Positions 31,510-45,425 are shown, counted from the first letter of the stretch. The stretch is DNA of 64,000 nucleotides from an uncultured Planctomycetales bacterium (GCA_964612665.1 CAZTCI010000004.1:270376-334375), one strand, 5' to 3'. Numbers and translations: made by a program. The notes: generated from the letters alone by a model not told the origin.

Positions 31510-31583
31510 CGCGGGGTGGAGCAGGCTGGTAGCTCGTCAGGCTCATAACCTGAAGGCCGCAGGTTCAAATCCTGCCCCCGCAA
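31510..31583 (+). tRNA. tRNA-Met (CAT), initiator-like (C1-A72 mismatch; near-identical to E. coli tRNA-fMet)
   Basis: cgcggggtggagcaggctggtagctcgtcaggctcataacctgaaggccgcaggttcaaatcctgcccccgcaa. An inverted-repeat-rich promoter region lies upstream (ccgcgtaaaatgaaat ... atttcattttacgcgg). Confidence 0.85.
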
Positions 31584-31596
31584 CTCTAACAAACGA

Positions 31597-31686: not shown

Positions 31687-32357
31687 TTATTTTAAGTTTT
31701 CCCAAAAAAGTCCATAACGGGAAAGCAATTTTTTTAACCGGTTCGCATCATTGATGTTTGTTCTGCGTTGTCTTGAAGCTGAGTAGAGAATCCGTCCGGC
31801 CTCGGATAGGCTTCTTGATTTGCGGCATATTTTAATCACTTCTGCTAATTCAACCTTTTCTATATGGTCCATTGCCTCAATTGAGGCAGTGCTTAAGATT
31901 TCTTCTAATAAACTTGAGTCGTTACTTTCTTGAGATTTTTTTCATAGATTAAGAAGTCGTTGGATTTCTTGTTCGACGATATCGACGTCAATTCTTCCAC
32001 CGGCGGCTAATGTTGCCATTCGCGTAATGGCAGCATTCAGGTCTCGGAAGTTCGCGGTCCACGCTACTTTTTCTGATTTGGCGAATTTTAAGAATTTTTC
32101 CTTTGCTTCTTTGTTAAAAGTAATATTGAGTCCGTGATCTTTGGCGAATTTGTCTAATTCATATTGTAAATTAGCCTCGATGTCTTCCCATCTTTCTTTA
32201 AGGGCCGGCAAATAAAACGTCCATAAATTTATTCTGGTATACAGGTCCTCTCTAAAATTACCTTTCTGAACTTCTAACCCAAGATCGCGATTAGTTCCCG
32301 CAATCAGTTGAAAATCACTTTTAATTTCTTTATCAGCTTCGATTAGAGCATTTAATC
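31687..32357 (-). pseudogene. Remnant of a sigma54-dependent (NtrC/RtcR-like) transcriptional activator: C-terminal AAA+ half and Fis-type HTH, frame-disrupted and N-terminally truncated
   Basis: Manual translation gives ..IAGTNRDLGLEVQKGNFREDLYTRINLWTFYLPALKERWEDI.. (the sigma54 activator AAA+ signature), bounded upstream by an in-frame TAA. A separate ORF at 31687-31872 carries the HTH tail (SEAGRILYSASRQRRTNINDANRLKKLLSRYGL). No Walker A or N-terminal domain was found. Confidence 0.5.
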
Positions 32358-32638: not shown

Positions 32639-32965
32639 ATGCACGAAATGGCTTATAAAGTGAAAGCGGATTTTTTGAGAGTTTTGAGTCATCCTGTTCG
32701 TTTGAAATTAATTGAAGAACTTAAAACAGGCGAAAAAAGTGTGGGGCATCTTGTCGCCAAATTAAAGATGGGGCAATCGAATATTTCCCGTCATCTTTTG
32801 GCTTTACGCAATGCCGGAATATTATCGTCCCGCCAGGAAAAGACAGTTGTTTACTACGATATCGCTGACCACGATATTTTTCATGTTTTACGTCCTATCG
32901 CCGTCATGCTTCGCAAAAAGTTTAAAGAATCAGAAAAGGTGTTTAGGACTTTAGGCAAAGACTAA
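32639..32965 (+). CDS. ArsR/SmtB-family transcriptional regulator
   Basis: Winged-helix motif LSHPVRLKLIEELKTGEKSVGHLVAKLKMGQSNISRHLLALRNAGIL. Confidence 0.7.
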   Translation: MHEMAYKVKADFLRVLSHPVRLKLIEELKTGEKSVGHLVAKLKMGQSNISRHLLALRNAGILSSRQEKTVVYYDIADHDIFHVLRPIAVMLRKKFKESEKVFRTLGKD

Positions 32966-33101
32966 TCTTTTCATTCCCGCCACAGGATCCTCTTGTCTCT
33001 ATTTTGATCCCCAATATTTTTAGTGTTTATTCTTGACATGAGAATAATGTATATACTAATATGCAAATATTAGAATATTTAAATAAAATAAAGGAATATC
33101 T

Positions 33102-34445
33102 TTGCGGAATCTATTTTGCAATCCGGGGACCTATTTAGCTCTTTTTCTTTTAACTCCCACCACTTCATTTGCCGAGATTAACCACAAAGAATTTCTCTCC
33201 ACCGACTTCATCCAATCTTTTCAGAAACAAGAATACGAAAAAGCTATACAAGAAAGCGATGCACTTCTTAAAAAGTATCCCAATGATCCTCTTGTCCTGC
33301 GTTATCGGGCGCTTACTTTAGAAAAACTTCATCATCCTGATCAAGCCATAAATCTCTACCATGAAATTTTAGCGGCTCATCCTAACGATGAGCCGACACG
33401 TTTATTCTTAGGGTTGACTTATATAAGGGAAGGGGAAAATCACAAAGCCGCTGAAGAACTGCATCAGGTCGTTGAGCATAGCCACTTGCCAGAATACCGG
33501 CATTGGGCGCAGGAGCAATTAGACCGTTTGCATTCATACGAAATTTCCGTCGGCAAGTCTATCCATAAGAAAGCTTATTTTGTTGGGAAAACAGGAATTA
33601 TTTATGACAGCAATCCTTTGCTTATTCCCGATAATCAAAGTTTGTCGTCGACAGAAAAGAATCCTGCGGCGCTGTATGAATTTGAATTGAGCGCCGGATA
33701 TCCGTTGCGGTTGGAAAAAGATTTTCGTTTGGATGCTTTGTATATCGGCGAAACATATCAGCATAGTCATGGCGCTCAGAGTGTTGATTTCACATCTCAG
33801 GGCTTTGCTTTGGATGCTAAAAAACGAACCTTTGCTGGCAGGCGTCCATTTTTGTTGAGTGGCCGATATGATTTTCGCGCGAACTTTTTAAGAAGTGACC
33901 TGTTTTCGATCGTTAATCGGTTTTATGTCAGCGCGGACACATCTTTCTGGCACAAAACGCTCACCAATTTCTTTGCGCGTTTTGCTGTTTCCAATTACGG
34001 TCCCGATGGCGCTAATCCCGATCAATCCTCGCGTGATGGCATTCGCGAAGGCATTGGTGTAACGCAATATTTTTATACCAAAAATCGTAAAAGCTTTTTC
34101 TTCATCAAGGGCGAAGGTGATTTCAATCAAACCCGCGGAGAGAATTTTAATCGTGAAGGTGCGCTCGCCACTATCGGTCTTCATACACCATTTTTTTATA
34201 AAACTGATTTGGATGTGTCTAGTTCATTTAATTGGGGCGTTTATCCGGACTTTACATCGTTATCGTCATTGGATCCGAGCGAACGGCGTGATAAAGGCTG
34301 GGATGCTTACGTCGGCGTGACGCATCATTGGAAGCCAAGTCTTGCGACACGGGTTTTTTATCGTTTTATCAATTCGGATAATAGCAATAATTTATTGGAC
34401 AGTAGCCGGCATCTGGCTGGTTGGGAAGTCATCTTCTTATTTTAA
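33102..34445 (+). CDS. Outer-membrane protein with N-terminal TPR domain and C-terminal beta-barrel (Slam/DUF560-like or PgaA/BcsC-like architecture)
   Basis: Signal peptide ending SFA. TPR repeats over about 120 aa. C-terminal half has alternating-hydrophobic strands and the canonical beta-signal ...GWEVIFLF (terminal Phe, hydrophobics at -1, -3, -5, -7). Confidence 0.45.
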   Translation: MRNLFCNPGTYLALFLLTPTTSFAEINHKEFLSTDFIQSFQKQEYEKAIQESDALLKKYPNDPLVLRYRALTLEKLHHPDQAINLYHEILAAHPNDEPTRLFLGLTYIREGENHKAAEELHQVVEHSHLPEYRHWAQEQLDRLHSYEISVGKSIHKKAYFVGKTGIIYDSNPLLIPDNQSLSSTEKNPAALYEFELSAGYPLRLEKDFRLDALYIGETYQHSHGAQSVDFTSQGFALDAKKRTFAGRRPFLLSGRYDFRANFLRSDLFSIVNRFYVSADTSFWHKTLTNFFARFAVSNYGPDGANPDQSSRDGIREGIGVTQYFYTKNRKSFFFIKGEGDFNQTRGENFNREGALATIGLHTPFFYKTDLDVSSSFNWGVYPDFTSLSSLDPSERRDKGWDAYVGVTHHWKPSLATRVFYRFINSDNSNNLLDSSRHLAGWEVIFLF

Positions 34446-34446
34446 T

Positions 34447-37275
34447 ATGCCTAACAAAATAAAAAATATAGAAGCGATCATCTTTTGCGGGATTTTATTG
34501 TGTATGTTTCTTTCTGTTTCTTCGGTATCGGCTGAGGACAGGAATGTTGCGGTCGACCAGAAGATAGGCGGCATGGAACAAGGACGGCGGATTCAATCGC
34601 CAGGGAATTACAATAATAAGGGGATAACCTCTGGTGAACCAGGAAGTACAACAACACCGGCGCATGATATCCATACGCTTTCGCAAGAATCCCAAAAAGC
34701 GGAAAGCTCTCAAGGAAGGAATATTTCCAATGGTGGGAATCATGGATTTCTTTATGTTCAGGGGCAAGCGAGCAATTCTGCGGACAATCAAAATGGGACT
34801 AATCAAGCCAGCCGCGAACAAACAAATGGCCTGCCTGCCGGACAGGCAGGTTCAACAAGTGCCAATACAAGCCAATCCCCGACGGGACAAGAAAATAGTT
34901 CTCCCAATGTAGGGAGCAGTCAGTCTGGGACTGGGCAATCCAACGGATCGGCAACTGTTAATACTGGTGAAACGCCGACGGGACAAACTGGCTCAGCGCA
35001 TGTGAGTACGGGTGAAACGTCGAGTGGGCAGACAGGTGGATCGGTCAACGTAAATGCGGGACAAACGGGCGGATCATCTGAAGTCAATGTCCCCTCGACG
35101 GGAACTGAACAAACCAGTGGCTCTGTTGGAACTGGAACAGTCCAAACAACAACCGGGCAGATTACGAATCCTGTCAATACAGGATCTCCTGGTACTACAG
35201 CTCCGACAGAAACATCTCCGACGGGACAAATTGAGACCGGAGAAACTCAAACGGGAAGCGGGAATTCAGGAACGAACACGGAATCGTCGGGAACTTCGAA
35301 TAATCCGATCGTTAGTGTTGATGCCAATGTCAATCCGAATTCGGGAGCAGCTGATACGAGTGTTCATACCGATACCAGCGGCCAGTTGGAAGATCGACAA
35401 ATCATTGATGCTGGTGCGACAACCGGACAAACATCGACTCAAACAGAAACAGGCAGTGCGAGTGGAATTACTGGATCCGAAATGGTTCACCAAACTGATA
35501 TAACGATACAACCAGTTGCCCAAACTACACAACAATTTGGAACAACAACTCCCAACACAACGGAAACAAATGTAGGAGCCGGCAATGGTGGAATTATCGT
35601 CGGAGGAGAAACGTCTCCGACCGGCCAAGTCGGAATAGGAGAAACTCAAACGGGAAGCGGCACTTCGCCGACAACAACAGAATCATCGGAAAGTTCAAGT
35701 AATCCGATTGTAGGCGTTGATGTGAATGCCAATCCGAATACAGGAGAAGTTAGTACCGGCATTCGCACAGATACCAGCGGCCAACTGGAAGATCGACAGA
35801 TTATTGATGCAGGCGTTGCTACCGGGCAAACAGAATCAACAGGAACTCAAACAGGCAGTGCGTCACAAATTACCGGGTCGGAAACGATCCATCAAGCGGA
35901 TGTAACAACACAACCAGTTGCCGACGCTGCCGGTCAAACGGGAGACACGACAACAAATGTTGGAACGGGCAACGGCGGAGTTTTGGTTGGCGGAGAGACA
36001 TCGCCGACGGGACAAGTTGAAGCTGGAGAAACTCAAACAGGAAACGGCCCTTCGCAGACAACCACAGAGTCATCCGGAACTTCAAATAATCCCATTGTGG
36101 CTGTCGATGTAAATGCAAATCCGAATTCGGGAGCAGTTGATACTGGCGTTCATACGGATACGAGTGGTCAGTTGGAAGACAGGCAAATCATCGACGCTGG
36201 TGCAACGGGAGAACATACGGGGTCGACTGGAGTTCAAACCGGCAGTGCATCACAGATAACCGGATCCGAAACGGTTCACCAAACTGATCTAACGACACAA
36301 CCTGTTACCGAAGCCACTGGACAAACAGGAACAGGGGAAGTGACAACGAGTACCGGCAATGGTGGAATTCTCATCGGTGGAGAAACATCACCGACGGGAC
36401 AAGTGGGCACGCAAGAAAATATCGGAGGCAGTTCAAGGACAACGCAAGAATCTTCGTCGGGAACTTCTAACCCAATTGTTGATGTTGAAGCTGGTGTCGA
36501 TCAAAATTCAGGAATGCCTCATGCCGAAGTCACTCTTGACACCAGCGGTGAGCTTGAAGAAAGACAAATTCTTGACGCAGACTTAACAGGAGAAACGACG
36601 GGTTCGACGGGCGCGGAAATAGGCGGCGCGACCGATATTACAGATGCAGATCTCGTTGAAGAAGCAGATATAACAACAGAAGTAGTGGGTGGCACAATAG
36701 GTCAAACTGTCCCAGATCAGATCAGCGGTTCAACAAATGGCGGAACTAGTTCTGGTTCTCAAACGCATACCGAAGAATCTTCCAGTACTTCAAGTAATCC
36801 TATCGTTGATATTGGAACAAATATCAATCCCGAATCCGGCACAGCTGATGTCAACGTCGGTGTAGATACAAGCGGTGAACTTGAAGACAGACAAATTTTA
36901 CAATTGGATTTAGCCGCAGACGGCGTTGGTTCCGGAGTAGAAACAGGCAGCGCCTCAGGTATGACGGGATCAGAGACTGTTCATGATGCCAATGTCACAA
37001 CAACACATGTCGCGACGACAGAACAAACGGTTAGCAGAACTTCAGAAACTCAAACGGGAACGAGTGGGATTTCCTCCGAAACACAAACGAGTGGCACCGT
37101 CGAAAGTATAATTTCGGCTCCCGCGGATTTCGGTGCAGAAATCGACACGACCGGTCAGACGGCCGGTGGAGAAGCCGATGTCGGAATAGCGGCTGAGGTT
37201 GATGGTGTTGGTGAAGGTGCTGATGTTGCGAGCGATCCTGCCGACGGACTTTCTACAGGTGGTCCCGGTCTTTAG
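34447..37275 (+). CDS. Large secreted Ser/Thr/Gly/Gln-rich repetitive protein (about 942 aa) with about 5 tandem 125-130-aa modules
   Basis: Signal peptide MPNKIKNIEAIIFCGILLCMFLSVSSVSA (start at 34447 preferred over the ORF-track 34342, which overlaps the upstream gene). Repeat module: GETSPTGQ..GETQTGSG..SNNPIV.VD.N.NPNSG..DT.VHTDTSGQLEDRQIIDAGAT..QTGSASQITGSETVHQTD.TTQPV. Confidence 0.6.
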   Translation: MPNKIKNIEAIIFCGILLCMFLSVSSVSAEDRNVAVDQKIGGMEQGRRIQSPGNYNNKGITSGEPGSTTTPAHDIHTLSQESQKAESSQGRNISNGGNHGFLYVQGQASNSADNQNGTNQASREQTNGLPAGQAGSTSANTSQSPTGQENSSPNVGSSQSGTGQSNGSATVNTGETPTGQTGSAHVSTGETSSGQTGGSVNVNAGQTGGSSEVNVPSTGTEQTSGSVGTGTVQTTTGQITNPVNTGSPGTTAPTETSPTGQIETGETQTGSGNSGTNTESSGTSNNPIVSVDANVNPNSGAADTSVHTDTSGQLEDRQIIDAGATTGQTSTQTETGSASGITGSEMVHQTDITIQPVAQTTQQFGTTTPNTTETNVGAGNGGIIVGGETSPTGQVGIGETQTGSGTSPTTTESSESSSNPIVGVDVNANPNTGEVSTGIRTDTSGQLEDRQIIDAGVATGQTESTGTQTGSASQITGSETIHQADVTTQPVADAAGQTGDTTTNVGTGNGGVLVGGETSPTGQVEAGETQTGNGPSQTTTESSGTSNNPIVAVDVNANPNSGAVDTGVHTDTSGQLEDRQIIDAGATGEHTGSTGVQTGSASQITGSETVHQTDLTTQPVTEATGQTGTGEVTTSTGNGGILIGGETSPTGQVGTQENIGGSSRTTQESSSGTSNPIVDVEAGVDQNSGMPHAEVTLDTSGELEERQILDADLTGETTGSTGAEIGGATDITDADLVEEADITTEVVGGTIGQTVPDQISGSTNGGTSSGSQTHTEESSSTSSNPIVDIGTNINPESGTADVNVGVDTSGELEDRQILQLDLAADGVGSGVETGSASGMTGSETVHDANVTTTHVATTEQTVSRTSETQTGTSGISSETQTSGTVESIISAPADFGAEIDTTGQTAGGEADVGIAAEVDGVGEGADVASDPADGLSTGGPGL
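35200..36950 (+). repeat. Coding tandem repeat array (period about 330-390 bp, about 5 units) inside the Ser/Thr-rich protein gene
   Basis: DTSGQLEDRQIIDAG-encoding segments recur at about 35371, 35772, 36153, 36539 and 36867. Confidence 0.7.
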
Positions 37276-37362
37276 GAAATATCACCAATAGAATAAATTT
37301 TCGTGCTAGCACTGTGCTAGCAAAATAAGCCGCAACTAGGGTAAAAACGGTAAACCACCAAC

Positions 37363-37405
37363 GCTCATAACCTGAAGGCCGTTGGTTCAAATCCCACCCC
37401 CGCAA
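37363..37405 (+). repeat. Direct repeat of the 3' half of tRNA-Met (putative att remnant of a 5.8-kb island)
   Basis: gctcataacctgaaggccgttggttcaaatcccacccccgcaa versus tRNA-Met 31541-31583. The anticodon loop through the variable region is 19/19 identical, the T-loop 9/9 and the acceptor 3' end 7/7. The 5' half of the tRNA is absent. Confidence 0.65.
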
Positions 37406-37631
37406 CCTTAATAAAGCTGCCGATAGGCAGCCATCCAAGAAAAGTCCCGTATACCTCTTAAGAATATTTTAGAAAGTGCGGGGGGCAACCAATATAAAAC
37501 CCGATTTCTCGACGAGTAATCGGGTTTTATAGTCTGTTTCGATGAGGTATGTAATTGAATACCTGTCCCAGAAAATTCAGACCATTTCCTTGGGCAGTAT
37601 TGAGAATGAGACAACCTAAGAGGAGGCATCC

Positions 37632-38022
37632 ATGAAGAATTACTTATTCTTGATTATGTTATTGTTAGTTTTCTTGCCGATAAGAGCAGAAGCGGATTCC
37701 AGCATTGATGTTGATTAACAGGAAATGAAGTCGTCCTCGCTCATGATTTTCCCTATTTGAATACTAATGTTTATCAAGGACTTGGATTAGGACAATCGAT
37801 GGTCAGAACAGTCGAAATTATTCAGGTTTTGAGATTCCGTTTGAAACGGAATTAACACCTGGGAAGAAATATTGGATATGGGCAGAAGATCCGCAGTTCA
37901 GCGGCGTGACGTTTAATTACAATACCGCGTTTGTTGGTCATGTTGTCCCCGAACCTGCCACGTTGTTGCTTTTAGGTCCAGCTATCCTGGGGATGGCTGG
38001 GTTGAGAAGAAATAGGGGATGA
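37632..38022 (+). pseudogene. Decayed PEP-CTERM sorting-signal protein gene (signal peptide, body and PEP-CTERM tail in three different frames)
   Basis: Strong Shine-Dalgarno (AGGAGG) then an ATG at 37632 encoding the signal peptide MKNYLFLIMLLLVFLPIRAEA, then a stop at 37716. The 3' end in another frame encodes ..VGHVVPEPATLLLLGPAILGMAGLRRNRG*, the classic PEP-CTERM motif. Multiple stops lie between. Confidence 0.45.
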
Positions 38023-38192: not shown

Positions 38193-38597
38193 TTACTTCT
38201 TCAGACTAATCTTCCCATCCGCGCTGGAACTCAATTCAATCTCCTTATTCTGATTCGTGTGCACATTCAACAGCACAACGGAGTTCTCTTTAATTTCTAA
38301 AAGTTTATAATCTCCGAACGCTGCTCCGATTTCATAAATCATTCCATTAATCAACGCCAAAGCCTTGTTGTCTTGGTGCGTAATGCCTTGGAGCTTGACT
38401 GAGGCGTCGGCATTTGGGTTGGCTTTCATTTTTGCAACCATTTCTTTTTCCTTTTGGACTCTTTTCAAGGTCGCCATTTGGTTCTGTTTATAATTAAAGA
38501 GAAGGAAAACGGTAGTAAGCAGAAGCAATAAAATAACCGCTTGAATCTGAAATCTTCCGTCGGACAATAAAAAGGATAAATATTTTGAGTTTTTCAT
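38193..38597 (-). CDS. PilP/GspC-like pilus/secretion assembly protein (N-terminal TM plus HR-like beta domain)
   Basis: C-terminal SVKLQGITHQDNKALALINGMIYEIGAAFGDYKLLEIKENSVVLL fits the PilP/GspC HR-domain pattern. Last gene of the pilus operon. Confidence 0.4.
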   Translation of the reverse strand: MKNSKYLSFLLSDGRFQIQAVILLLLLTTVFLLFNYKQNQMATLKRVQKEKEMVAKMKANPNADASVKLQGITHQDNKALALINGMIYEIGAAFGDYKLLEIKENSVVLLNVHTNQNKEIELSSSADGKISLKK

Positions 38598-39532
38598 TTT
38601 TGGCCTTTCGTTAAACGTTTTGCGTATTCGTAATCCGATTTTGTATAAGAGTTCGCGATTTTCTGGGTTTGGGCTTTAAGTTGGGCGATATTGGCTGTCA
38701 GATAAATGCAAGTTAACATGACGATCAATAAGAGGCCTTGCATTGCTAACATAATTTTTTGCCGTTCTTGAGCTGAGATAGAGTGCCCTCGCATAAAATC
38801 GAGATTCAAAAAAGCTGGCAACGATTCCTGTGCCGGCGCATCGGGCATGGTTGTCAGGTCGCCGCCATTTTTCTTGATGTCTTCTTTCAACTGCTCAATC
38901 AGATCTCCTTTGATATTCCCCGTCGTGAAAAACTGTCCCCAATTTTTATCCGCGCTTTTGGCGGTCACGCTTCGTAAGGATTGAATGACCTCATCGCGGG
39001 CTTCTTTAAATCCTTCATAGCGGATCTCCCGCAAAAGTTCGCATTCACCGCCGCAGAAAATCGCCACATGCAGACGGTTATCTGAATCAAAATAAATCAC
39101 ACACCAACGTCCGGTTTGTTTTTCTTGCTGCTGTATAAATGTATCTATTTTCATCAATATCGCAGAAGTGACACGGGCTGGGGTGATTCCGGATTTGTGA
39201 GCCGCTTTAAGATATTCCTGTAAAACTGATTTTGGTATGCACATAAAAATCCCTTTAAGCTCGTCTTTGTCGTTTACCAAAACTTGATAATCTAACTCAA
39301 TCTCACTGGATGGTAAAGATAAAAGCCCTACCGCTTCAAACATTAACCTGGCCCGCAAATCTTTCAAACCAATCGTGCTTACATTAAAAGGATAGACCAG
39401 GCATTTTGGATCAGATAATGCCAGCGCAATCGGGTTTTTCGACGATAAATCGGCCAATGTGATTTCGTGTAATGACTGGCCTAAATCTAAAGGAGATGAT
39501 GCGGTTAGCGTTGATAAAGATGCGATAGTCAT
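38594..39532 (-). CDS. PilM/GspL-like assembly protein (cytoplasmic actin-like domain plus C-terminal TM)
   Basis: Position in the operon. A cytoplasmic domain of about 250 aa followed by the TM helix LLLIVMLTCIYLTANIA. Confidence 0.4.
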   Translation of the reverse strand: MTIASLSTLTASSPLDLGQSLHEITLADLSSKNPIALALSDPKCLVYPFNVSTIGLKDLRARLMFEAVGLLSLPSSEIELDYQVLVNDKDELKGIFMCIPKSVLQEYLKAAHKSGITPARVTSAILMKIDTFIQQQEKQTGRWCVIYFDSDNRLHVAIFCGGECELLREIRYEGFKEARDEVIQSLRSVTAKSADKNWGQFFTTGNIKGDLIEQLKEDIKKNGGDLTTMPDAPAQESLPAFLNLDFMRGHSISAQERQKIMLAMQGLLLIVMLTCIYLTANIAQLKAQTQKIANSYTKSDYEYAKRLTKGQK

Positions 39533-39536
39533 ATTT

Positions 39537-40763
39537 TTAAAGCTCCTGCCACTTGCGTGTGTTTGAATTGATTGTCCCTCCTAAAACCTGGTCATAATGG
39601 ATTTGACCATTTTGAAGAAGGGTTACAGTTTTTCCGACGACAGCGCCGTAATATCCATTGTTGTTACTAATTGTGACGCCCGTGCCAGGAGCGTAAACCG
39701 CGCCGTAAAAACTGCCGTTGTTGGTGATTTGAACGCCGTTGTTACCGGTATAGGTGCTGAAAATTTGAAACTTGGATGGGGTCCCGCCGTTATTGACGCT
39801 TCCGTTGTTACTTAAATTGATGGGCCCGTCGGTATAGATCGTTACACTGGCGCCGGCATTTAAAACAAATAAAAAATTATTCCCCGTTGAGACCGCTGAT
39901 GTTGTGCTGGTTAAATAAAGATTAACAGTGCCATTGAACGTAACGGTTTTGTTATTACTCAAACTAATGGCCGTATATTTGTAATTTCCGGCGGCGAGTG
40001 TTGTATTATTGGTAATGCTGCCGCTGTTTGAAAGACTGGTTAAATTTGATGGAACACTGACCGAGGGTAAAGTAATGTTGTTCGTATTGGTCGTTGATCC
40101 ATTGACTGGTGTATTCCCGACGCTGACGGTGCCTCCCGCGCCGGTGCTGACATCACCATTAACATGAGCATTGTTATCAATTGTAATGGCGTTCGCCGTT
40201 GTTCCGTCTGTACCGACGTCGCCGTTCGTTTGAATATTGGCGCCGCCGTAGGCACCGCTGTTTGAATCATAACTATTGATGAGCGTATTGTTGTTTAAGG
40301 TAATTGAATTTTGAGCAAAGGCTGCATACTTAAAAAGTGAACCGCTGTCCAATTGGATCGTGCGCGAAACTTTGTTCGCTGCCGTGCGGCTTGGGTACCA
40401 GCCTTTGGCCACGACGATCATGTTGCCGTCATCAAATGAAATATCGTAATCGCCATAGACGGTTGAAGCATCGAACTTTAATTGAGTGTTGAGAACTTTG
40501 TTCCCGCCGCCGCAATTAAGACAGCTGGTGCAATGCGTTGTTGTTCCTTCTTGAAATAAAGCCGCGCAGCTATTGTGATTGTATTCCCATAATGTTTTTT
40601 GAATGCCAGCCTCGGCGAGCCAAAAAGCCCTGTTATAAAGGACCTCTTTTTCGGCGCGTTCCTTTTGTACCATCGACAAGTACATCGATCCCAATCCTAA
40701 GAGCGTGAAGGTCAAGATAAACATTAATGTGATGACGAGAATAGATCCGCGTTCATTTCTCAT
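39537..40763 (-). CDS. Large minor pseudopilin (GspK/PilX-like) with Asn/Thr/Ser-rich beta-rich C-terminal region
   Basis: N-terminal hydrophobic prepilin-like segment MRNERGSILVITLMFILTFTLLGLG. 408 aa. Operon context. Confidence 0.45.
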   Translation of the reverse strand: MRNERGSILVITLMFILTFTLLGLGSMYLSMVQKERAEKEVLYNRAFWLAEAGIQKTLWEYNHNSCAALFQEGTTTHCTSCLNCGGGNKVLNTQLKFDASTVYGDYDISFDDGNMIVVAKGWYPSRTAANKVSRTIQLDSGSLFKYAAFAQNSITLNNNTLINSYDSNSGAYGGANIQTNGDVGTDGTTANAITIDNNAHVNGDVSTGAGGTVSVGNTPVNGSTTNTNNITLPSVSVPSNLTSLSNSGSITNNTTLAAGNYKYTAISLSNNKTVTFNGTVNLYLTSTTSAVSTGNNFLFVLNAGASVTIYTDGPINLSNNGSVNNGGTPSKFQIFSTYTGNNGVQITNNGSFYGAVYAPGTGVTISNNNGYYGAVVGKTVTLLQNGQIHYDQVLGGTINSNTRKWQEL

Positions 40764-41239
40764 GGATTTCTCCTGCGTACGGTTGTGCCTTCCACAAAAT
40801 TAATATTGTCTTTTGTCCCGGATATTTCAATCTTGACGGAATTGCTGGTTACTCCCGGAGAGGGGAATGTTAACGTAATCGTGCCAGGCTGCGGCACCGA
40901 TAAAATGGTTTGGCGTTGAACACCGTTGTCATACACTAAATCGACTGTTGAGGCGTTCGTTTGGTAAAGGCCGAAAATAGCGGCATCAATCAAAAAGTGT
41001 TTGCCGCTGATCCAAGGCGAAGGCTGATTGGTCAAAGTCAGAGTCTTCGCGACGCGGACCTTGTTTTGTAATAATTTAAATGCGTAAGAAAGATCATTAT
41101 AAATTTGCTGTTGGCTGTTTAATTTTTTATATGAACTGTTGCCGATCGTCGAGAGTGTTCCTATCGTCAAAATCAAAATAGACGCGATCATGATCGCGAG
41201 CAGAAATTCAATTAATGAGTGGCCATGCGTATTTTTCAT
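40760..41239 (-). CDS. Minor pseudopilin (prepilin-type N-terminal methylation domain)
   Basis: GHSLIEFLLAIMIASILIL class III signal-like N-terminus. Confidence 0.55.
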   Translation of the reverse strand: MKNTHGHSLIEFLLAIMIASILILTIGTLSTIGNSSYKKLNSQQQIYNDLSYAFKLLQNKVRVAKTLTLTNQPSPWISGKHFLIDAAIFGLYQTNASTVDLVYDNGVQRQTILSVPQPGTITLTFPSPGVTSNSVKIEISGTKDNINFVEGTTVRRRNP

Positions 41240-41631
41240 GGGGCTATAAAGGTTGCTAAATCAATTTCCTGATTTTGTTTGCCGGGTTCGGCCCAAGTAA
41301 ATTTCATTTCTACTAATTTTAGGGAGCCCGCTCCCGATTGATCGGTTACCCGTCGCTGTTTTTGAACAATAAAGTCAGAGCTTCCGAAGTAAATATTCTG
41401 GGCCGTTTCCCAGCTTCCCGAGGCCGGGTTCGGCAAACTGGCATAGCCATCGACTCTCATTTGTTCTATTTGCTGTGTCCCTAATTCCATGGCGATTTTT
41501 TTATGCATGTTTAACGCCATGACCTCTTGAGGATGACAATAAAATCCAATACTTCCCGCCAGGACCATAGTCAAAAGGACAATTGAAACCAAAACTTCAA
41601 CTAAGGTATAACCTTTGAAATTTTTTCTCAT
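41236..41631 (-). CDS. Minor pseudopilin (prepilin-type N-terminal methylation domain)
   Basis: KGYTLVEVLVSIVLLTMVLAG N-terminus. Confidence 0.55.
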   Translation of the reverse strand: MRKNFKGYTLVEVLVSIVLLTMVLAGSIGFYCHPQEVMALNMHKKIAMELGTQQIEQMRVDGYASLPNPASGSWETAQNIYFGSSDFIVQKQRRVTDQSGAGSLKLVEMKFTWAEPGKQNQEIDLATFIAP

Positions 41632-41654
41632 GATGAATACCCGAGATATGCAAA

Positions 41655-41739
41655 TTGTGTCATTGCGAGGAGTGCTTTTTGCGGCGAAGCCATCGAAGAG
41701 ATCGCTTCGCTAAAAAAGCGCACGCTCGCAATGACACAA
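41655..41739 (-). promoter_or_regulatory. Long imperfect hairpin just downstream of the major pilin gene (outer 15-bp perfect arms ttgtgtcattgcgag / ctcgcaatgacacaa, inner gcgaagc/gcttcgc); probable attenuating terminator
   Basis: Read from sequence. An internal U-run (gcgcttttttagcg) appears on the transcribed strand. Confidence 0.55.
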
Positions 41740-41756
41740 AATTGCACGAGCGTTTA

Positions 41757-42353
41757 TTAGTAAGCGCTCCAGTTCGTAGCCGTTCCGCAGTTTGCGTAGC
41801 AAACAAAAATACGGCCGCTGTTATCCATTTCTAATTCATAACCAGCAATTTCATCTGCATGGACTGCGCAGCTGGTATCTGTATTCGCAGCGCATTTGTA
41901 GCTGTTATCACCCTTCATACTGATTAAAAATCCGACAGGAGCTGGATTCGTGAACAGCTGTGAGCGGGTGTTGGCGTTGGTTGGCGCCGGAGCTTCGACA
42001 TAAAATGAAGCGTTGGAGAAATATTGAGACACGCCGACATTGACATCGACACCGGACGGATCAGGTGTTGGAACACCCGTCGCTGCCACAACACTTGAGG
42101 GTAATGGTTTTTGGATATTTCCGGCGGTATTTGAGAGGTTTGTGTCCTGAGCAACATCAAAGAACGTGTTGTGATTCACGTTATAGTCACGTTCGGCCTG
42201 GCGGACTAAACCGGCCGTGGCCACTGCTTCTGACATTTTTGATTTCTTGGTGTTGGCCAAATAGATCGGTGTGGCGACCGCTGCCAAAATGGCGACGATG
42301 ATCAACACGACCAATAATTCGACCATGGTAAAACCTTGCTTGTTGTTTAACAT
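41757..42353 (-). CDS. Major type IV pilin / pseudopilin
   Basis: Class III prepilin leader MLNNKQGFTMVELLVVLIIVAILAAVATP (G-F/T-MVE cleavage/methylation motif). 198 aa. Strong AAGGAGA Shine-Dalgarno. Followed by the long hairpin. Confidence 0.65.
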   Translation of the reverse strand: MLNNKQGFTMVELLVVLIIVAILAAVATPIYLANTKKSKMSEAVATAGLVRQAERDYNVNHNTFFDVAQDTNLSNTAGNIQKPLPSSVVAATGVPTPDPSGVDVNVGVSQYFSNASFYVEAPAPTNANTRSQLFTNPAPVGFLISMKGDNSYKCAANTDTSCAVHADEIAGYELEMDNSGRIFVCYANCGTATNWSAY

Positions 42354-42518
42354 TGCTGTTTCTCCTTGTTGTTTGTTTTTCTTGTTGCTTGCTGTTTATT
42401 TATACTGATGTCCATCAAATGATGTGATTTCAGTGCTTATTATTAACGGCGCTTTTTTTTCAGTGAAGTGTTCAACTCAAAGAATTAAAAAGACTAGCTC
42501 CCCCAAAGGAGCGTCACT

Positions 42519-43727
42519 TCACCTCAAAGCTCCGGAAATTTTAAAAATTGGCAGATACAACGCCAAAACTACAACCAATACAATCCCGCCGATAAAAATA
42601 ATCAGCGCGGGTTCCAACAAAACTGTTAAGCGGCTTAATGTATTATCAAGTTCATCATCATAATAGTCGGCGGTGCGTTTGAGCATCTCAGAGACCTTGC
42701 CGGTTTTTTCTCCGACGGCAACCATTTTTTTAACCATGCCTGAGAAAATTTTCTGCCCACGGATTTCTGAGGTCAAATCTGAACCGGCCACGACCCGTTG
42801 GCGTACATTCATAATTGCTTCGGCAAGAGGGCGATGATTGACGACCTGGGCGGTAATTTCGAGCGACGTGGATAAACCTACGCTCCCTTCGATTAGGACA
42901 CTCAATGTCCGGCAGAAACTTGAAATGCAACCTTTATAAATGACATTTTTACCGACGATGGGAATTTTGAATTTGGCATAGTCAACAGCATGGCGGAATT
43001 TAGGATTCTTTAGCGCAATCCAAAATGCGAAGAAAGCCGCCACGATTCCTAAAAGAACAATAGGGAACGCATGGATCATTGTTTCGCTTATACCGACCAC
43101 AATCCTTGTTAAAAGCGGTAATTGTCCTCCAGCGCTTTCAAACATGCTTTTAAATTTCGGAATCAAAAATAGAACAATGATAAGCACCACAGCAATGGCA
43201 AAACCAATGACGAATAACGGATAACGAAGGGCAGTGACAACTTTTTCTTTCATCCGTTCGGAATTTTCTATATATCTAGCCAGCTCGTTTGTTGTCCTGT
43301 CCAGGCGGCCGGTCGCTTCTCCCGATTTGATGATTGCGGTGTAGGTTTTTGGAAAAATCCTTGGGTATTTTAGAAGTGTCGTCGAGAAATCAGCCCCGCC
43401 GCGGATGTCTTTGGCGATTGAGAGGATGACCGTTTGAAAATATTTATTTTCCACATCTTCGGCAATTGTTTCCAAAGCATCTGTCAAAAGTAATCCCGAA
43501 GCCAAGGTTGCTGCCAGCTGGCGCGTGAAAACAACCAACTCCTTGCTTTTAACGCGGCCTGCCGTCAAAAAGCCTTTAGGCAATTGTTCTTTGTTTTGAA
43601 TGGCTTTGATTTTGATGGGCAGTAGCCCTTCTTTACTTAGACGAAAGACAACACTACTGACGTCATCAGCGTGGATTGTTCCAGTTATGTTGCGTCCATC
43701 TTTTTGGGCCGTGTATTTGAATATCAT
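42519..43727 (-). CDS. Type IV pilus / T2SS platform protein (GspF/PilC family)
   Basis: Two T2SSF domains and 3 TM segments. About 400 aa. Confidence 0.85.
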   Translation of the reverse strand: MIFKYTAQKDGRNITGTIHADDVSSVVFRLSKEGLLPIKIKAIQNKEQLPKGFLTAGRVKSKELVVFTRQLAATLASGLLLTDALETIAEDVENKYFQTVILSIAKDIRGGADFSTTLLKYPRIFPKTYTAIIKSGEATGRLDRTTNELARYIENSERMKEKVVTALRYPLFVIGFAIAVVLIIVLFLIPKFKSMFESAGGQLPLLTRIVVGISETMIHAFPIVLLGIVAAFFAFWIALKNPKFRHAVDYAKFKIPIVGKNVIYKGCISSFCRTLSVLIEGSVGLSTSLEITAQVVNHRPLAEAIMNVRQRVVAGSDLTSEIRGQKIFSGMVKKMVAVGEKTGKVSEMLKRTADYYDDELDNTLSRLTVLLEPALIIFIGGIVLVVVLALYLPIFKISGALR

Positions 43728-43736
43728 AGGCGTTCC

Positions 43737-45425
43737 TTAAAATTCTATGGTTTGTTGAGTCACTCTTAAAAGTTCTTCGGCTGTTGTGATGCCTTCTTTA
43801 AGTTTTTCAATTCCGGCTTCACGCAGGGTTTTCATCCCGCCTTTTTTGGCGAGAGCTAAGACTTCGTCAGCTGAGCTTCGTTGTAAAATTAATTGGCGGA
43901 TGGAATCATCTGGAATTAAAAGCTCATAAATAGCGACGCGGCCTTTATAACCACTGTTGAAACATTTTGAACATCCTGAACCGCGGGAAAAAGTTTTGAT
44001 TTGTCCGTCGAGCGCTAATTTTTCGAGGACATCGCGCGAAGGACGATAAGTTTGCTGGCAGTCGGGACAAATCGTGCGGATTAAACGCTGGGCCACGACG
44101 CACAAAAGTGAAGAAGTGATTAAATAGGGTTCGACTCCCATATTGGCCAAACGTACAGCGGCGCCGCAGGCATCGTTCGTATGAAGTGTTGTAAAAACCA
44201 AGTGGCCGGTTAAGGCGGCGTGAGTGGCGATTTCGGCGGTTTCGCGGTCACGGATTTCACCGACCATGATGACATCGGGATCTTGCCGGAGAATCGAACG
44301 TAATCCGCGGGCGAAATCAAAACCAATTTGAGTGTTCACTTGAGATTGTTGAATGAAAGGCAATCGATATTCGACGGGATCTTCTAAGGTAATAATATTT
44401 TTTTCATCGGATTTGATGGCGTTAAGCGCTGTATACAAAGTGGTCGTCTTTCCGCTTCCCGTCGGGCCAGTGACCAAGATCATGCCGTAAGAAGAAAGAA
44501 TGAGGCTGTTAATTTTCTGTAAGTCGCAAGCCGAAAAACCCAAAGCATCTAAGCCAAGCAAAGGATGCGACGTGTCCAAAAGGCGCATGACAATGCTTTC
44601 GCCATAGATCGTCGGAAAACAAGAGGTCCGGATGTCAATTTCTTTGCGGCCGATATTTATTTTGAAACGGCCGTCCTGGGGCAATCGCCGTTCAGCAATG
44701 TCGAGTCCGGCCATGATCTTAATGCGGGCCGTGATGGCCGAGAGCATCTCTTTGGGCGGTGGATCGATTGGATGTAAAACGCCGTCGATCCGCAGCCGCA
44801 ATTCGACGCGTTCTTGTTTAGGCTGGATATGAATGTCGCTCGCTGATTTCGTCATCGCCTCCACAATCAGATCGCGGACATATTGGACGACTGGCTGGTC
44901 GTCGGCTTCAAAAATCTTTTCTTCCTGGACTACAGCGGCTGGCTGTTCGGTGCGCGTCTCTGAATCGATAAAATCCTCGACGTGCTTTTTTAAACGCGGC
45001 AGGTGCTGGTAACAATATTCAATGGCTTCGATGATTTCATCTTCGTTGGCGACGACGTATTGGATTTTAAATCCAGTTCTGAGGCGAAGTGTATCGATAG
45101 CTAACAGGTCAAGCGGATCAAACATCGCGACCGTCAGCGTTTTATCTTTAAGATCAATAGGAAGAGTGCTAAACCGGTGAGCCAGTTCCCGGGGAATCGC
45201 TGCAATGACATCGTGTTTAATGTCTTTATAAATGTCTTTAAGGGGGATATAAGGAATATGAAAATATTTGGCAAGAAAGGGAGCCATCTTTTGCGGCGTA
45301 ATGTATCCCATTTTCAAAAGAATATCGCCGAGACGGTCGTGAGTCCGTTCCTGCTCGGTTAAAGCAATCTTTAATTCTTGGGCCGTAATGAGTCCTTCAC
45401 GCGTCAAAGATTCGCCGATTCTCAT
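43737..45425 (-). CDS. Type IV pilus / T2SS assembly ATPase (GspE/PilB/MshE family) with tandem MshEN-like N-terminal motifs
   Basis: Walker A GPTGSGKTT, Asp box, His box and the tetracysteine CPDC..C..C. The N-terminus has two RxGxxLxxxGxI..xxL repeats (RIGESLTREGLITAQELKIAL; RLGDILLKMGYITPQKMAPFL) resembling the c-di-GMP-binding MshEN domain. Confidence 0.85.
   Translation of the reverse strand: MRIGESLTREGLITAQELKIALTEQERTHDRLGDILLKMGYITPQKMAPFLAKYFHIPYIPLKDIYKDIKHDVIAAIPRELAHRFSTLPIDLKDKTLTVAMFDPLDLLAIDTLRLRTGFKIQYVVANEDEIIEAIEYCYQHLPRLKKHVEDFIDSETRTEQPAAVVQEEKIFEADDQPVVQYVRDLIVEAMTKSASDIHIQPKQERVELRLRIDGVLHPIDPPPKEMLSAITARIKIMAGLDIAERRLPQDGRFKINIGRKEIDIRTSCFPTIYGESIVMRLLDTSHPLLGLDALGFSACDLQKINSLILSSYGMILVTGPTGSGKTTTLYTALNAIKSDEKNIITLEDPVEYRLPFIQQSQVNTQIGFDFARGLRSILRQDPDVIMVGEIRDRETAEIATHAALTGHLVFTTLHTNDACGAAVRLANMGVEPYLITSSLLCVVAQRLIRTICPDCQQTYRPSRDVLEKLALDGQIKTFSRGSGCSKCFNSGYKGRVAIYELLIPDDSIRQLILQRSSADEVLALAKKGGMKTLREAGIEKLKEGITTAEELLRVTQQTIEF

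What the first reader, a model, noticed from the sequence alone, without database searches (positions are those of the whole stretch)
32639..37275. Candidate dedicated surface-protein export pair: TPR + beta-barrel OMP (Slam/DUF560-like architecture) overlapping a giant tandem-repeat Ser/Thr/Gly-rich secreted protein, downstream of an ArsR regulator
The 447-aa protein joins an N-terminal TPR domain to a C-terminal beta-barrel ending in a textbook beta-signal (GWEVIFLF). That is the architecture of Slam/DUF560 surface-lipoprotein translocators and of PgaA/BcsC-type exporters. Its 3' end overlaps the start region of a 942-aa signal-peptide protein. That protein has about 5 tandem 125-130-aa modules rich in S/T/G/Q with conserved SNNPIV and DTSGQLEDRQIIDAG cores. 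The sequence composition suggests an adhesin or S-layer-like surface protein, possibly O-glycosylated. Translocator-cargo adjacency inside a tRNA-linked island may mark a portable surface-display module not described for this gene pair.
Basis: inference. Interest (0 to 1): 0.75.

Follow-up and report, generated by a model that had tools for sequence, protein, structure and literature searches.

The report
Slam-like outer-membrane pore with disordered acidic partner
An uncultured Omnitrophota bacterium carries a strictly conserved two-gene unit: a distant relative of the Slam/type 11 secretion outer-membrane pore, followed by a secreted, very acidic, probably unstructured protein that is most likely its cargo, which would extend this secretion system beyond Proteobacteria and to a new cargo type.

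Summary
Window 33102-34445 encodes a 447-aa outer-membrane protein. An AlphaFold2 model (pLDDT 87) shows three TPR repeats followed by a 14-strand barrel. Window 34447-37275 starts 1 nt after that gene's stop and encodes a 942-aa signal-peptide protein with five tandem modules.

The pair is obligate in both directions. All 28 genome loci found with the OMP carry the partner just downstream. All 27 informative metagenome loci found with the partner's motif alone carry the OMP just upstream.

No Pfam barrel family matches the OMP or its close relatives. A barrel-only profile does reach proteins that pass Pfam's SlipAM (DUF560/Slam) threshold. hhalign against these distant barrels gives 99.96% probability.

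The partner is not a folded adhesin or an S-layer protein. It is a polyanion (pI 4.05) that AlphaFold2 predicts to be disordered. Only a short N-terminal motif and a C-terminal motif ending in DPADGL are conserved. Most relatives are 230-300 aa, so the window copy is a lineage-specific repeat expansion.

It lacks the 8-strand barrel domain that defines known T11SS cargo. The ArsR link holds only in the closest relatives.

Best reading: a divergent, non-proteobacterial Slam/T11SS-like translocator with a new cargo class. Export itself is untested.

The parts
33102..34445 (+). Gene for a 447-aa outer-membrane protein. Layout: signal peptide (about aa 1-24), TPR domain (helices aa 28-151, nt 33183-33554), 14-strand beta-barrel (aa 159-446, nt 33576-34439), C-terminal beta-signal GWEVIFLF.
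34447..37275 (+). Gene for the 942-aa partner, the putative cargo. It is Sec-dependent, very acidic (pI 4.05; 112 D/E against 18 K/R), rich in T/G/S/Q, and predicted to be disordered.
   Evidence: It lies directly downstream of the OMP in every related locus.
34447..34533 (+). Partner signal peptide (aa 1-29, MPNKIKNIEAIIFCGILLCMFLSVSSVSA). There is no lipobox.
   Evidence: Sequence. Predicted helix at aa 4-21. It aligns with the signal peptides of 28 homologues.
34534..34611 (+). Conserved N-terminal motif of the mature partner (EDRNVAVDQKIGGMEQGRRIQSPGNY). The family consensus is D-x-R-E-x-A-V/I-D-x-A-I-G-G-M-E-E-G-S-R. The proposed role is docking or anchoring on the OMP.
   Evidence: Alignments. 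The D is invariant in 29 of 29 sequences. D, G, M and G are invariant in the 21-sequence alignment. The motif alone retrieved 28 metagenome loci, and 27 of them have the OMP upstream.
35296..37116 (+). Five tandem modules of 109-133 aa, starting at aa 284, 417, 546, 673 and 782. Each has an S-x-N-P-I-V core and a DTSG(Q/E)LE(D/E)RQI core. The typical family member has one such core. This is a lineage-specific expansion.
   Evidence: Short homologues carry a single copy of this core. The close relative L037 has two modules.
37120..37251 (+). Conserved C-terminal motif of the partner (...ADFGAEIDTTGQTAGGEADVGIAAEVDGVGEGADVASDPADGL). A possible export or specificity signal.
   Evidence: C-terminal alignment of 25 homologues. 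The analogy is to the C-terminal specificity motif of Slam substrates (PMC9090332). The role is inferred.
33033..33062 (+). Sigma-70-like promoter candidate (TTGACA, 18-nt spacer, TAATAT; 10 of 12 matches) 40 nt upstream of the OMP start. It would make OMP and partner a transcription unit separate from the ArsR gene.
   Evidence: This is only a consensus match, and the total number of such sites in the region is no higher than in shuffled sequence.
32639..32965 (+). ArsR/SmtB-family regulator gene (108 aa). It is a neighbour only in the closest relatives and is not part of the conserved unit.
   Evidence: No homologue in 28 genome loci. A truncated 74-aa copy sits upstream of the OMP in L037/L038.
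31510..31584 (+). tRNA-Met (CAT). Its 3' half (31541-31593) is the left copy of the direct repeat that brackets the cassette.
   Evidence: The same arrangement occurs in L005.
37363..37415 (+). 53-nt copy of the tRNA-Met 3' half (87% identical). This is the right-hand, att-like boundary of the 5.8-kb segment holding the ArsR, OMP and partner genes.

Best explanation
This is a two-gene outer-membrane export unit of the Slam/type 11 secretion kind, in a divergent form found outside the Proteobacteria.

Proposed sequence of events:
1. Both proteins cross the inner membrane through Sec. This is inferred from their signal peptides.
2. The 447-aa protein inserts into the outer membrane as a monomeric 14-strand barrel, with its three-TPR domain in the periplasm. 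The architecture is shown by the model. The topology is inferred.
3. The partner is a natively unfolded polyanion. One of its two conserved short motifs is captured by the OMP. These are the N-terminal motif V-D-x-x-I-G-G-M-E-x-G-S/R-R (GRR in this copy), which sits just after the signal-peptide cleavage site, and the C-terminal motif ending in DPADGL. This step is inferred.
4. The partner's chain is threaded through the barrel lumen to the cell surface. Because it is already unfolded it would need no holdase. This step is inferred.
5. The simplest end state is an acidic, hydrated, disordered filament that stays tethered to its own pore by the N-terminal motif. Its length would be set by the number of about 125-aa modules: one in most relatives, two in L037, five here.

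What this surface polyanion does is not known. Candidates are cation binding, a hydration or anti-fouling layer, or a contact or shield function in very small groundwater cells.

For: Homology.
- A barrel-only profile found 139 representatives at E <= 1e-3 among 1.84 billion proteins. Nearly all have the barrel as their C-terminal 290 residues.
- Of 85 distant representatives, 17 match Pfam SlipAM (best E 1.4e-12) and 42 match TPR_Slam.
- P0206 (27.9 bits) and P0244 (23.7 bits) pass the SlipAM cut-off of 22.
- hhalign of the window family's barrel against 40 of these distant barrels gives probability 99.96% and E 6e-39 over 284 columns.

Obligate pairing.
- From the OMP: 28 of 28 genome loci carry a signal-peptide protein with the motif directly downstream, usually 2-30 nt away.
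- From the partner motif alone: 27 of 27 informative metagenome loci carry the OMP directly upstream.
- In the window the gap is 1 nt.

Nature of the partner.
- No Pfam domain.
- AlphaFold2 pLDDT 36, with no secondary structure beyond the signal peptide.
- pI 4.05. All homologues are strongly acidic.
- Only the two ends are conserved.

Precedent in the literature.
- T11SS OMPs are DUF560 14-strand barrels with a TPR domain of about 140 aa, and cargo genes sit next to them (PMC8406197).
- Slam1 alone translocates unfolded substrate and recognises a terminal motif (PMC9090332).
- Some T11SS cargo is soluble and unlipidated, and some carries long disordered repeat regions (10.1101/2024.09.26.615229).

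Repeat number. Variation in module number among close relatives is a pattern usual for surface-exposed proteins. This last point rests on general knowledge.
Against: - There is no experimental evidence that the partner leaves the periplasm.
- The window protein and its 51 aligned relatives do not match Pfam SlipAM. The link to Slam is transitive and passes through proteins that only just clear the cut-off. The same distant set also touches other barrel families: OMP_b-brl in 11 members and BBP2_2 in 10.
- The set used for hhalign was itself retrieved with the query profile, so its high probability is not an independent test.
- The partner lacks the C-terminal 8-strand barrel domain that unifies all verified T11SS cargo.
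- The alignment behind the partner model has only 12 sequences, so the low confidence is not by itself proof of disorder.
- An MscS-like inner-membrane channel gene sits next to the pair in about half of the loci. The export model does not explain this.
Confidence: 0.5

Rival explanations
1. The partner is not cargo. It is a periplasmic subunit of a solute channel. The 14-strand barrel would be a CymA/OmpG-like diffusion pore. The acidic disordered protein would stay in the periplasm, held on the TPR domain by its N-terminal motif. There it would act as a plug or gate, or as a fixed periplasmic polyanion in the manner of osmoregulated periplasmic glucans. The unit would work together with the neighbouring MscS-like channel in osmotic or ionic homeostasis.
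For: - The best structural matches are substrate channels (CymA, OmpG), and CymA is gated by a mobile N-terminal segment (plus general knowledge).
- An MscS-like gene (PF00924) lies directly next to the pair, on either side, in 12 of 28 genome loci and 14 of 28 metagenome loci.
- In remote relatives the neighbouring small proteins are only 69-115 aa long, which is short for a surface structure.
- The organisms come from low-osmolarity groundwater, according to the record titles.
Against: - The homology points to a protein translocon family rather than to porins.
- Expansion of the partner to 400-1346 aa by module duplication is hard to explain for a plug.
- The MscS-like gene is missing from the window and from about half of the loci.
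- TPR-plus-barrel fusions are so far known from exporters (literature).
Confidence: 0.25
2. The pair is a fibre or functional-amyloid secretion unit of the curli or Fap type. The repeat-bearing protein, rich in Q, N, G, S and T, would be a fibre subunit that polymerises outside the cell after passing through the barrel.
For: - Imperfect tandem repeats rich in G, S, T, Q and N.
- A dedicated outer-membrane barrel gene next door.
- The unfolded state of the partner before export.
Against: - Most family members have a single module and no repeats.
- The proteins are extremely acidic (for example 38 D/E against 8 K/R in about 240 aa), which disfavours amyloid packing (general knowledge).
- There is no similarity to CsgA, FapC, CsgG or FapF in the Pfam scans. 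FapF is a 12-strand trimer with a coiled coil and no TPR domain (general knowledge).
- No nucleator or chaperone genes are conserved nearby.
Confidence: 0.07
3. The OMP is an exopolysaccharide export porin of the PgaA/BcsC/PelB type, and the partner is an unrelated neighbour or an accessory protein.
For: - The TPR-plus-barrel fusion, and weak TPR-level hits to PgaA and PrsT models.
Against: - The barrel has 14 strands, not 16.
- There are only about three TPRs, against long arrays in those porins.
- NCBIfam scores are far below the cut-offs: 14.6 against 366 for PgaA.
- No glycosyltransferase or synthase gene is conserved beside the pair. The only recurrent neighbours are the partner and the MscS-like gene.
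- The partner is strictly co-inherited with the OMP.
Confidence: 0.05

Closest known systems
Slam / type 11 secretion system OMPs (Pfam SlipAM, PF04575, formerly DUF560; for example N. meningitidis Slam1/2, X. nematophila NilB and HrpB)
   Same: - An N-terminal periplasmic TPR domain of about 140-150 aa, followed by a 14-strand C-terminal barrel.
- Similar size: 447 aa here against a family median of 481 aa.
- A single-OMP system with a Sec-dependent cargo gene next door.
- Some cargo is soluble and unlipidated.
- Substrate is moved in an unfolded state.
- Remote sequence homology through intermediate proteins.
   Different: - No match to the Pfam SlipAM model for this protein or for 51 close relatives.
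- The hosts are Omnitrophota and other uncultured groundwater lineages, not Proteobacteria.
- The partner lacks the 8-strand TbpBBD or lipoprotein-C type barrel domain that defines known cargo. It is instead a disordered polyanion with conserved short motifs at both ends.
- There is no link to TonB, haem or metal-uptake genes.
Synthase-dependent exopolysaccharide porins PgaA, BcsC and PelB
   Same: TPR repeats fused to an outer-membrane barrel that exports an unfolded polymer.
   Different: - Those have 16-strand barrels, long TPR arrays and polysaccharide substrates, and they sit in synthase operons.
- Here there are 14 strands, about three TPRs and a protein partner, and no synthase genes.
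Monomeric 14-strand channels CymA (4d5b) and OmpG (2f1c)
   Different: Sequence identity is 8-9%. They have no TPR domain and no partner gene, and they act in sugar uptake.
Two-partner secretion (type Vb: TpsB transporter plus TpsA passenger)
   Same: - One outer-membrane transporter gene sits next to one Sec-dependent passenger gene.
- The passenger is recognised in the periplasm through a conserved N-terminal element.
- The passenger is often long and repetitive. (General knowledge.)
   Different: - TpsB is a 16-strand Omp85 barrel with POTRA domains.
- The TPS signal is a folded domain of about 250 aa.
- Passengers fold into beta-helices.
- None of these features is present here.

Membership tests
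Slam / T11SS (SlipAM, DUF560) | Outer-membrane protein whose barrel matches Pfam PF04575 (SlipAM/DUF560) at the curated threshold | tested here: not met
   - The window protein gives no SlipAM hit at E <= 1.
- SlipAM is not among the 25 families listed for the 52 family members.
- Seven barrel-only sequences give no barrel family even at E <= 10.
- The link is indirect only. A barrel profile retrieves distant proteins, of which 17 of 85 hit SlipAM (best E 1.4e-12). P0206 and P0244 pass the 22-bit cut-off. hhalign against 40 of these distant barrels gives 99.96%.
Slam / T11SS (SlipAM, DUF560) | 14-strand C-terminal beta-barrel | tested here: met
Slam / T11SS (SlipAM, DUF560) | N-terminal periplasmic domain of about 140 aa with tetratricopeptide repeats | tested here: met
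   - TPR_14, TPR_19 and TPR_2 hits lie above their cut-offs at residues 64-132.
- TPR_Slam scores 29.3 bits, below its cut-off of 35.2. All 52 members hit TPR_Slam at sub-threshold level.
- The model has helices at residues 28-151.
Slam / T11SS (SlipAM, DUF560) | Cargo gene encoded next to the OMP gene | tested here: met
   28 of 28 loci starting from the OMP. 27 of 27 informative loci starting from the partner. That the neighbour is actually cargo is inferred.
Slam / T11SS (SlipAM, DUF560) | Cargo carries a C-terminal 8-strand beta-barrel domain (TbpBBD or lipoprotein C type) | tested here: not met
   - The partner and two short homologues have no Pfam domain.
- No strands are predicted anywhere in the partner (from a shallow alignment).
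- The conserved C-terminal region is only about 45 aa, and whole homologues are only 227-300 aa of acidic, low-complexity sequence.
Slam / T11SS (SlipAM, DUF560) | OMP-dependent appearance of the cargo on the cell surface or in the medium | not testable with these tools
   This needs co-expression with a localisation assay, or proteomics.
PgaA / BcsC / PelB exopolysaccharide porins | 16-strand barrel with a long TPR array, encoded in a polysaccharide synthase operon | tested here: not met
   - The barrel has 14 strands and there are about three TPRs.
- The PgaA model scores 14.6 bits against a cut-off of 366.
- No conserved glycosyltransferase neighbour was found.
   phmmer with the window ArsR finds no hit among the ORFs of 28 genome loci. 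It is present only in the window, in its near-identical contig L001, and as a truncated 74-aa copy in L037/L038.

The most novel reading that the evidence does not exclude
A previously unrecognised branch of outer-membrane protein translocons, widespread in Omnitrophota and other uncultured diderm lineages. It would use a different cargo logic from T11SS.
- The cargo is an intrinsically disordered polyanion.
- A short N-terminal linear motif is held by the translocon's TPR domain.
- The rest of the chain is threaded out, so each pore carries its own tethered acidic 'bristle'.
- The length of the bristle evolves quickly by module duplication.
- The two-gene unit, often with an MscS-like channel gene, moves as a small cassette that targets tRNA-Met.

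Small secreted acidic proteins, several with a similar motif, lie next to remote relatives of the OMP. This hints that the pairing is older and broader than the family studied here.
Probability: 0.2. Interest if true: 0.75.

Novelty: new variant of a known kind. Interest (0 to 1): 0.6.

Why it matters
Type 11 secretion (Slam) is described as essentially proteobacterial. All verified cargo share a C-terminal 8-strand barrel that is thought to carry the export signal.

This unit would change that picture in three ways:
- It would place the translocon fold in the Omnitrophota.
- It would show that the cargo rule is not universal.
- It would offer a minimal test system for how an outer-membrane barrel moves a polypeptide without ATP. 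The system has one pore and one naturally unfolded substrate, with short terminal motifs that are easy to mutate.

It also gives a first functional handle on a conserved gene pair of unknown function in ultra-small groundwater bacteria, whose surface biology is almost unknown.

If the rival channel-plus-polyanion reading is right instead, it would point to a protein-based counterpart of periplasmic glucans.

Tried and rejected
Searches that led nowhere.
- Pfam and NCBIfam scans of the OMP returned only generic TPR hits. Barrel-only scans of seven family members found no barrel family.
- A sequence search of the PDB with the family profile returned only TPR proteins.
- Foldseek against the AlphaFold database, which could have shown Slam models directly, was not available.
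- A homologue search seeded with the SlipAM-positive P0206 returned mostly its own candidate-phylum family and generic TPR proteins, not classical Slams.
- A further scan of ten distant relatives found no strong SlipAM hit. The member responsible for the best SlipAM score (E 1.4e-12) was therefore not identified.
- Tandem Repeats Finder found nothing in the partner gene, because the repeats are too diverged at the DNA level.
- Rfam found only the three tRNAs in the window.
- The AlphaFold2 model of the partner has no usable structure, so no fold search was run on it.

Ideas considered and rejected.
- ArsR as the regulator of the family.
- A polysaccharide porin.
- A lipoprotein cargo. There is no lipobox, and the Cys residues in the signal peptide are not conserved.
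- Foreign origin inferred from the higher G+C of the partner gene (0.48-0.49 against about 0.43). This follows from its Gly/Thr/Ser/Ala-rich composition.


Full report
**What is there.** The window comes from an uncultured Omnitrophota bacterium. Identical proteins occur on a 340-kb NCBI contig, and the nearest named homologues are 'Candidatus Omnitrophota' MAGs. Three co-directional genes occupy the flagged region.
- An ArsR/SmtB regulator gene at 32639-32965. It scores 75.9 bits against NF033788, whose cut-off is 55.
- A 447-aa protein gene at 33102-34445.
- A 942-aa protein gene at 34447-37275.

The stop codon of the second gene is at 34443-34445 and the ATG of the third is at 34447. The genes are therefore 1 nt apart, not overlapping. 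Only the mechanical longest ORF, with a TTG at 34342, overlaps. The best promoter-like site in the region, at 33033-33062, lies between the ArsR gene and the 447-aa gene. This is weak evidence.

**The outer-membrane protein.** Pfam sees only TPR repeats at residues about 38-132. One of these hits is TPR_Slam, below its threshold at 29.3 bits against 35.2. An AlphaFold2 model built on 52 homologues has mean pLDDT 87. It shows a disordered signal-peptide region, TPR-type helices at residues 28-151, and exactly 14 beta-strands at residues 159-446. The chain ends in the beta-signal GWEVIFLF.

**Relation to Slam/DUF560.** The Pfam SlipAM model (PF04575) matches neither this protein nor its close relatives. 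Barrel-only fragments of seven family members match no barrel family at all. A PDB sequence search finds only TPR proteins.

A profile of the barrel alone was searched against 1.84 billion representative proteins. It found 139 proteins at E <= 1e-3. Nearly all are 440-600 aa long with the barrel as their C-terminal 290 residues or so.
- Of 85 distant members, 17 match SlipAM (best E 1.4e-12) and 42 match TPR_Slam.
- P0206 (27.9 bits) and P0244 (23.7 bits) pass the curated 22-bit cut-off.
- The barrels of all 85 form one BLAST-connected network.
- hhalign of the window family against 40 of these distant barrels, chosen as BLAST neighbours of SlipAM-matching seeds, gives probability 99.96% and E 6e-39 over 284 columns.

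I read this as remote homology to the Slam/T11SS barrel, with three caveats. The connection is transitive. The comparison set was fished out with the query profile itself. The same set also touches other generic barrel families.

The architecture matches the published description of T11SS OMPs: a 14-strand DUF560 barrel and a periplasmic TPR domain of about 140 aa, with a median length of 481 aa.

**The partner.** The 942-aa protein has a signal peptide and no lipobox. It contains five tandem modules starting at aa 284, 417, 546, 673 and 782, each with an SxNPIV core and a DTSG(Q/E)LE(D/E)RQI core. The DNA copies are 60-80% identical.

It is 45% Thr, Gly and Ser, has 112 acidic against 18 basic residues, and has a pI of 4.05. 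It has no Pfam domain. An AlphaFold2 run gives pLDDT 36 and no secondary structure beyond the signal peptide. That alignment holds only 12 sequences, so the composition is the stronger argument for disorder.

**The pair is obligate.** A scan of 185,579 species genomes with the OMP alignment returned 28 loci. By record title these are Omnitrophota MAGs plus MAGs labelled Deltaproteobacteria, Planctomycetia or Planctomycetales.

In every locus the next gene on the same strand, usually 2-30 nt away, encodes a signal-peptide protein. Its mature N-terminus carries the motif D-x-R-E-x-A-(V/I)-D-x-A-(I/L)-G-G-M-E-E-G-S-R. The rest of the protein is acidic and of low complexity. In most homologues a conserved C-terminus follows, of the form ...G-E-A-D-V-G-x-E-A-D-V...D-P-A-D-G-L.

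Most partners are only 227-300 aa and carry a single copy of the module core. The window protein is a repeat expansion, as are its 12 detectable full-length homologues of 548-1346 aa. A close relative, L037, whose OMP is 80% identical, has two modules.

The reciprocal test used only the partner motif GGM[ERD][EQ]GSR[IPM] against metagenome contigs. It returned 28 confirmed loci. Of these, 27 have an OMP homologue ending directly upstream. The remaining locus has only 71 nt of upstream DNA.

**What is not conserved.**
- The ArsR gene has no homologue in the 28 genome loci. It appears only in the window clade, and it is truncated to 74 aa in L037/L038.
- The only other recurrent neighbour is an MscS-like channel gene of about 270 aa (PF00924). 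It lies directly downstream of the partner or upstream of the OMP in 12 of 28 genome loci and 14 of 28 metagenome loci. It is absent from the window.
- No glycosyltransferase, TonB or metal-uptake genes recur.

**Mobility.** tRNA-Met lies at 31510-31584. A 53-nt copy of its 3' half at 37363-37415 (87% identical) brackets the segment that holds the ArsR, OMP and partner genes.
- In L005 (OMP 65% identical) the synteny is the same, enolase-FtsB-tRNA-Met. There, perfect 46-nt tRNA-half repeats bracket a DUF6088 fragment, the OMP, the partner and the MscS-like gene.
- tRNA-Met halves also lie beside the cassette in L003 and L022. L003, L005 and L022 share a junction sequence of about 40 nt.
- In L037 the cassette sits between glycosyltransferase genes with an AbiE toxin-antitoxin pair on one side and SSB-PriA on the other. 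These flanks are entirely different from those in the window.

No integrase lies inside any copy. 'Portable cassette' is plausible but not shown.

**Remote relatives.** Eight more distant TPR-barrel proteins were looked up.
- Four have an adjacent small secreted protein, mostly acidic, in which I see a comparable motif near the N-terminus: L031 (105 aa, DSREVQVDSVIG), L034/L035 (115 aa, VDAEVDLALGG), L033 (93 aa, upstream, VDEKLGVTEGERP) and L040 (69 aa, upstream, EADAGLGL).
- One, L039, has an acidic 113-aa neighbour with no clear motif.
- The other three were uninformative. L041 and L042 have no obvious candidate. For P0144 no DNA was returned, although a co-directional gene of at least 251 aa follows the OMP gene.

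These motif resemblances were judged by eye and were not tested statistically.

**Mechanism.**
- Shown: two Sec-type signal peptides, the TPR-plus-14-strand-barrel architecture, remote Slam homology, a predicted-disordered polyanionic partner with two conserved terminal motifs, and strict, tightly spaced gene pairing.
- Inferred: the OMP is a Slam-like translocon, and its periplasmic TPR domain or barrel recognises one of the partner's motifs. The unfolded chain passes through the lumen. Slam1 moves unfolded substrates and recognises a terminal motif (PMC9090332). The product is a surface-tethered or released acidic filament.

I put this reading at about 0.5.

The main rival, at about 0.25, keeps the partner in the periplasm as a plug or a fixed polyanion of a solute channel that works with the MscS-like protein. 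Fibre or amyloid secretion (0.07) and polysaccharide export (0.05) fit poorly.

**Novelty.** In the literature available here, T11SS is described as predominantly proteobacterial, with cargo unified by a C-terminal 8-strand barrel. No paper in that library describes this pair. I class it as a new variant of a known kind: a divergent, non-proteobacterial Slam-like OMP with a new putative cargo class.

Noticed in passing
window 31541-31593 and 37363-37415; L005 7144-7189 and 11874-11919; L003 3282; L022 6250: Copies of the tRNA-Met 3' half flank or adjoin the OMP-partner cassette in four species. They are perfect over 46 nt in L005 and 87% identical over 53 nt in the window. L003, L005 and L022 also share a junction of about 40 nt (AAAATCATCAATCACCGTCGAGATCGTTTGAAxCC) just before the tRNA half. 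No integrase lies inside. This looks like a small integrative cassette that targets tRNA-Met.
   Followed up: partly
L005 10921-11730; L029 9406-10239; 12 of 28 genome loci and 14 of 28 metagenome loci: An MscS-like mechanosensitive channel gene of about 270 aa (PF00924) lies directly beside the pair, either downstream of the partner or upstream of the OMP, in about half of all loci. It is absent from the window. The reason for the link is unexplained.
   Followed up: partly
window 31687-32211 (- strand): Two short ORFs lie next to tRNA-Met. One (31942-32211) matches AAA_lid_14. The other (31687-31872) has no significant Pfam hit but looks like a Fis-type HTH tail. Together they appear to be the broken 3' remnant of a sigma-54 activator gene inside the bracketed segment.
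   Followed up: partly
window 37633-38020 (+ strand): A short signal-peptide ORF (MKNYLFLIMLLLVFLPIRAEADSSIDVD, then a stop) is followed about 200 nt downstream, in another frame, by a PEP-CTERM-like ending (VPEPATLLLLGPAILGMAGLRRNRG). This is probably a frame-broken PEP-CTERM protein gene, which would imply an exosortase system in this genome.
   Followed up: no
L037 5300-6948; L005 7511-7858: In the close relative L037, an AbiEi-like/AbiEii toxin-antitoxin pair and a truncated ArsR gene (74 aa, near-identical to the window's over its aligned length) lie directly upstream of the OMP. L005 has a DUF6088 (AbiEi-type) fragment in the same position. This is mobile-element baggage that travels with the cassette.
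   Followed up: partly
L031 2421-2738; L034 5364-5711; L033 72-353; L040 2292-2501; L039 2700-3041: Remote TPR-barrel relatives (profile E between 4.5e-55 and 2.7e-14) also have a small secreted, mostly acidic protein next door. Several carry a V-D-x-x-(L/I)-G-like motif just after the signal peptide. The pairing may be much older than the family studied here.
   Followed up: partly
window 37304-37321; L005 7258 and 11747: The palindrome TGCTAGCACTGTGCTAG(C) lies just before the distal tRNA-half copy in the window. In L005 it occurs near both ends of the cassette. Its function is unknown.
   Followed up: no
partner homologues in L004, L005, L006, L007, L022, L026 (C-termini): In some partners the C-terminal motif is framed by two cysteines (C-D-P-x-D-G/A-L/I-...-C). 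This suggests a small disulphide loop at the extreme C-terminus. The window copy has Ser at the first of these positions.
   Followed up: no
window 38193-45425 (- strand): Immediately after the cassette lies a type IV pilus or T2SS-like operon: a PilX_N/DUF7305 protein, N_methyl pseudopilins, a T2SSF platform protein and a T2SSE/MshEN ATPase. This is according to the precomputed Pfam hits for the identical contig L001.
   Followed up: no
window 21009-22859 (+ strand): A second TPR protein (616 aa) has TPR repeats at its C-terminal end and a sub-threshold TPR_Slam hit of 32.6 bits. Its N-terminal 400 aa have no Pfam match. It was not examined further.
   Followed up: no
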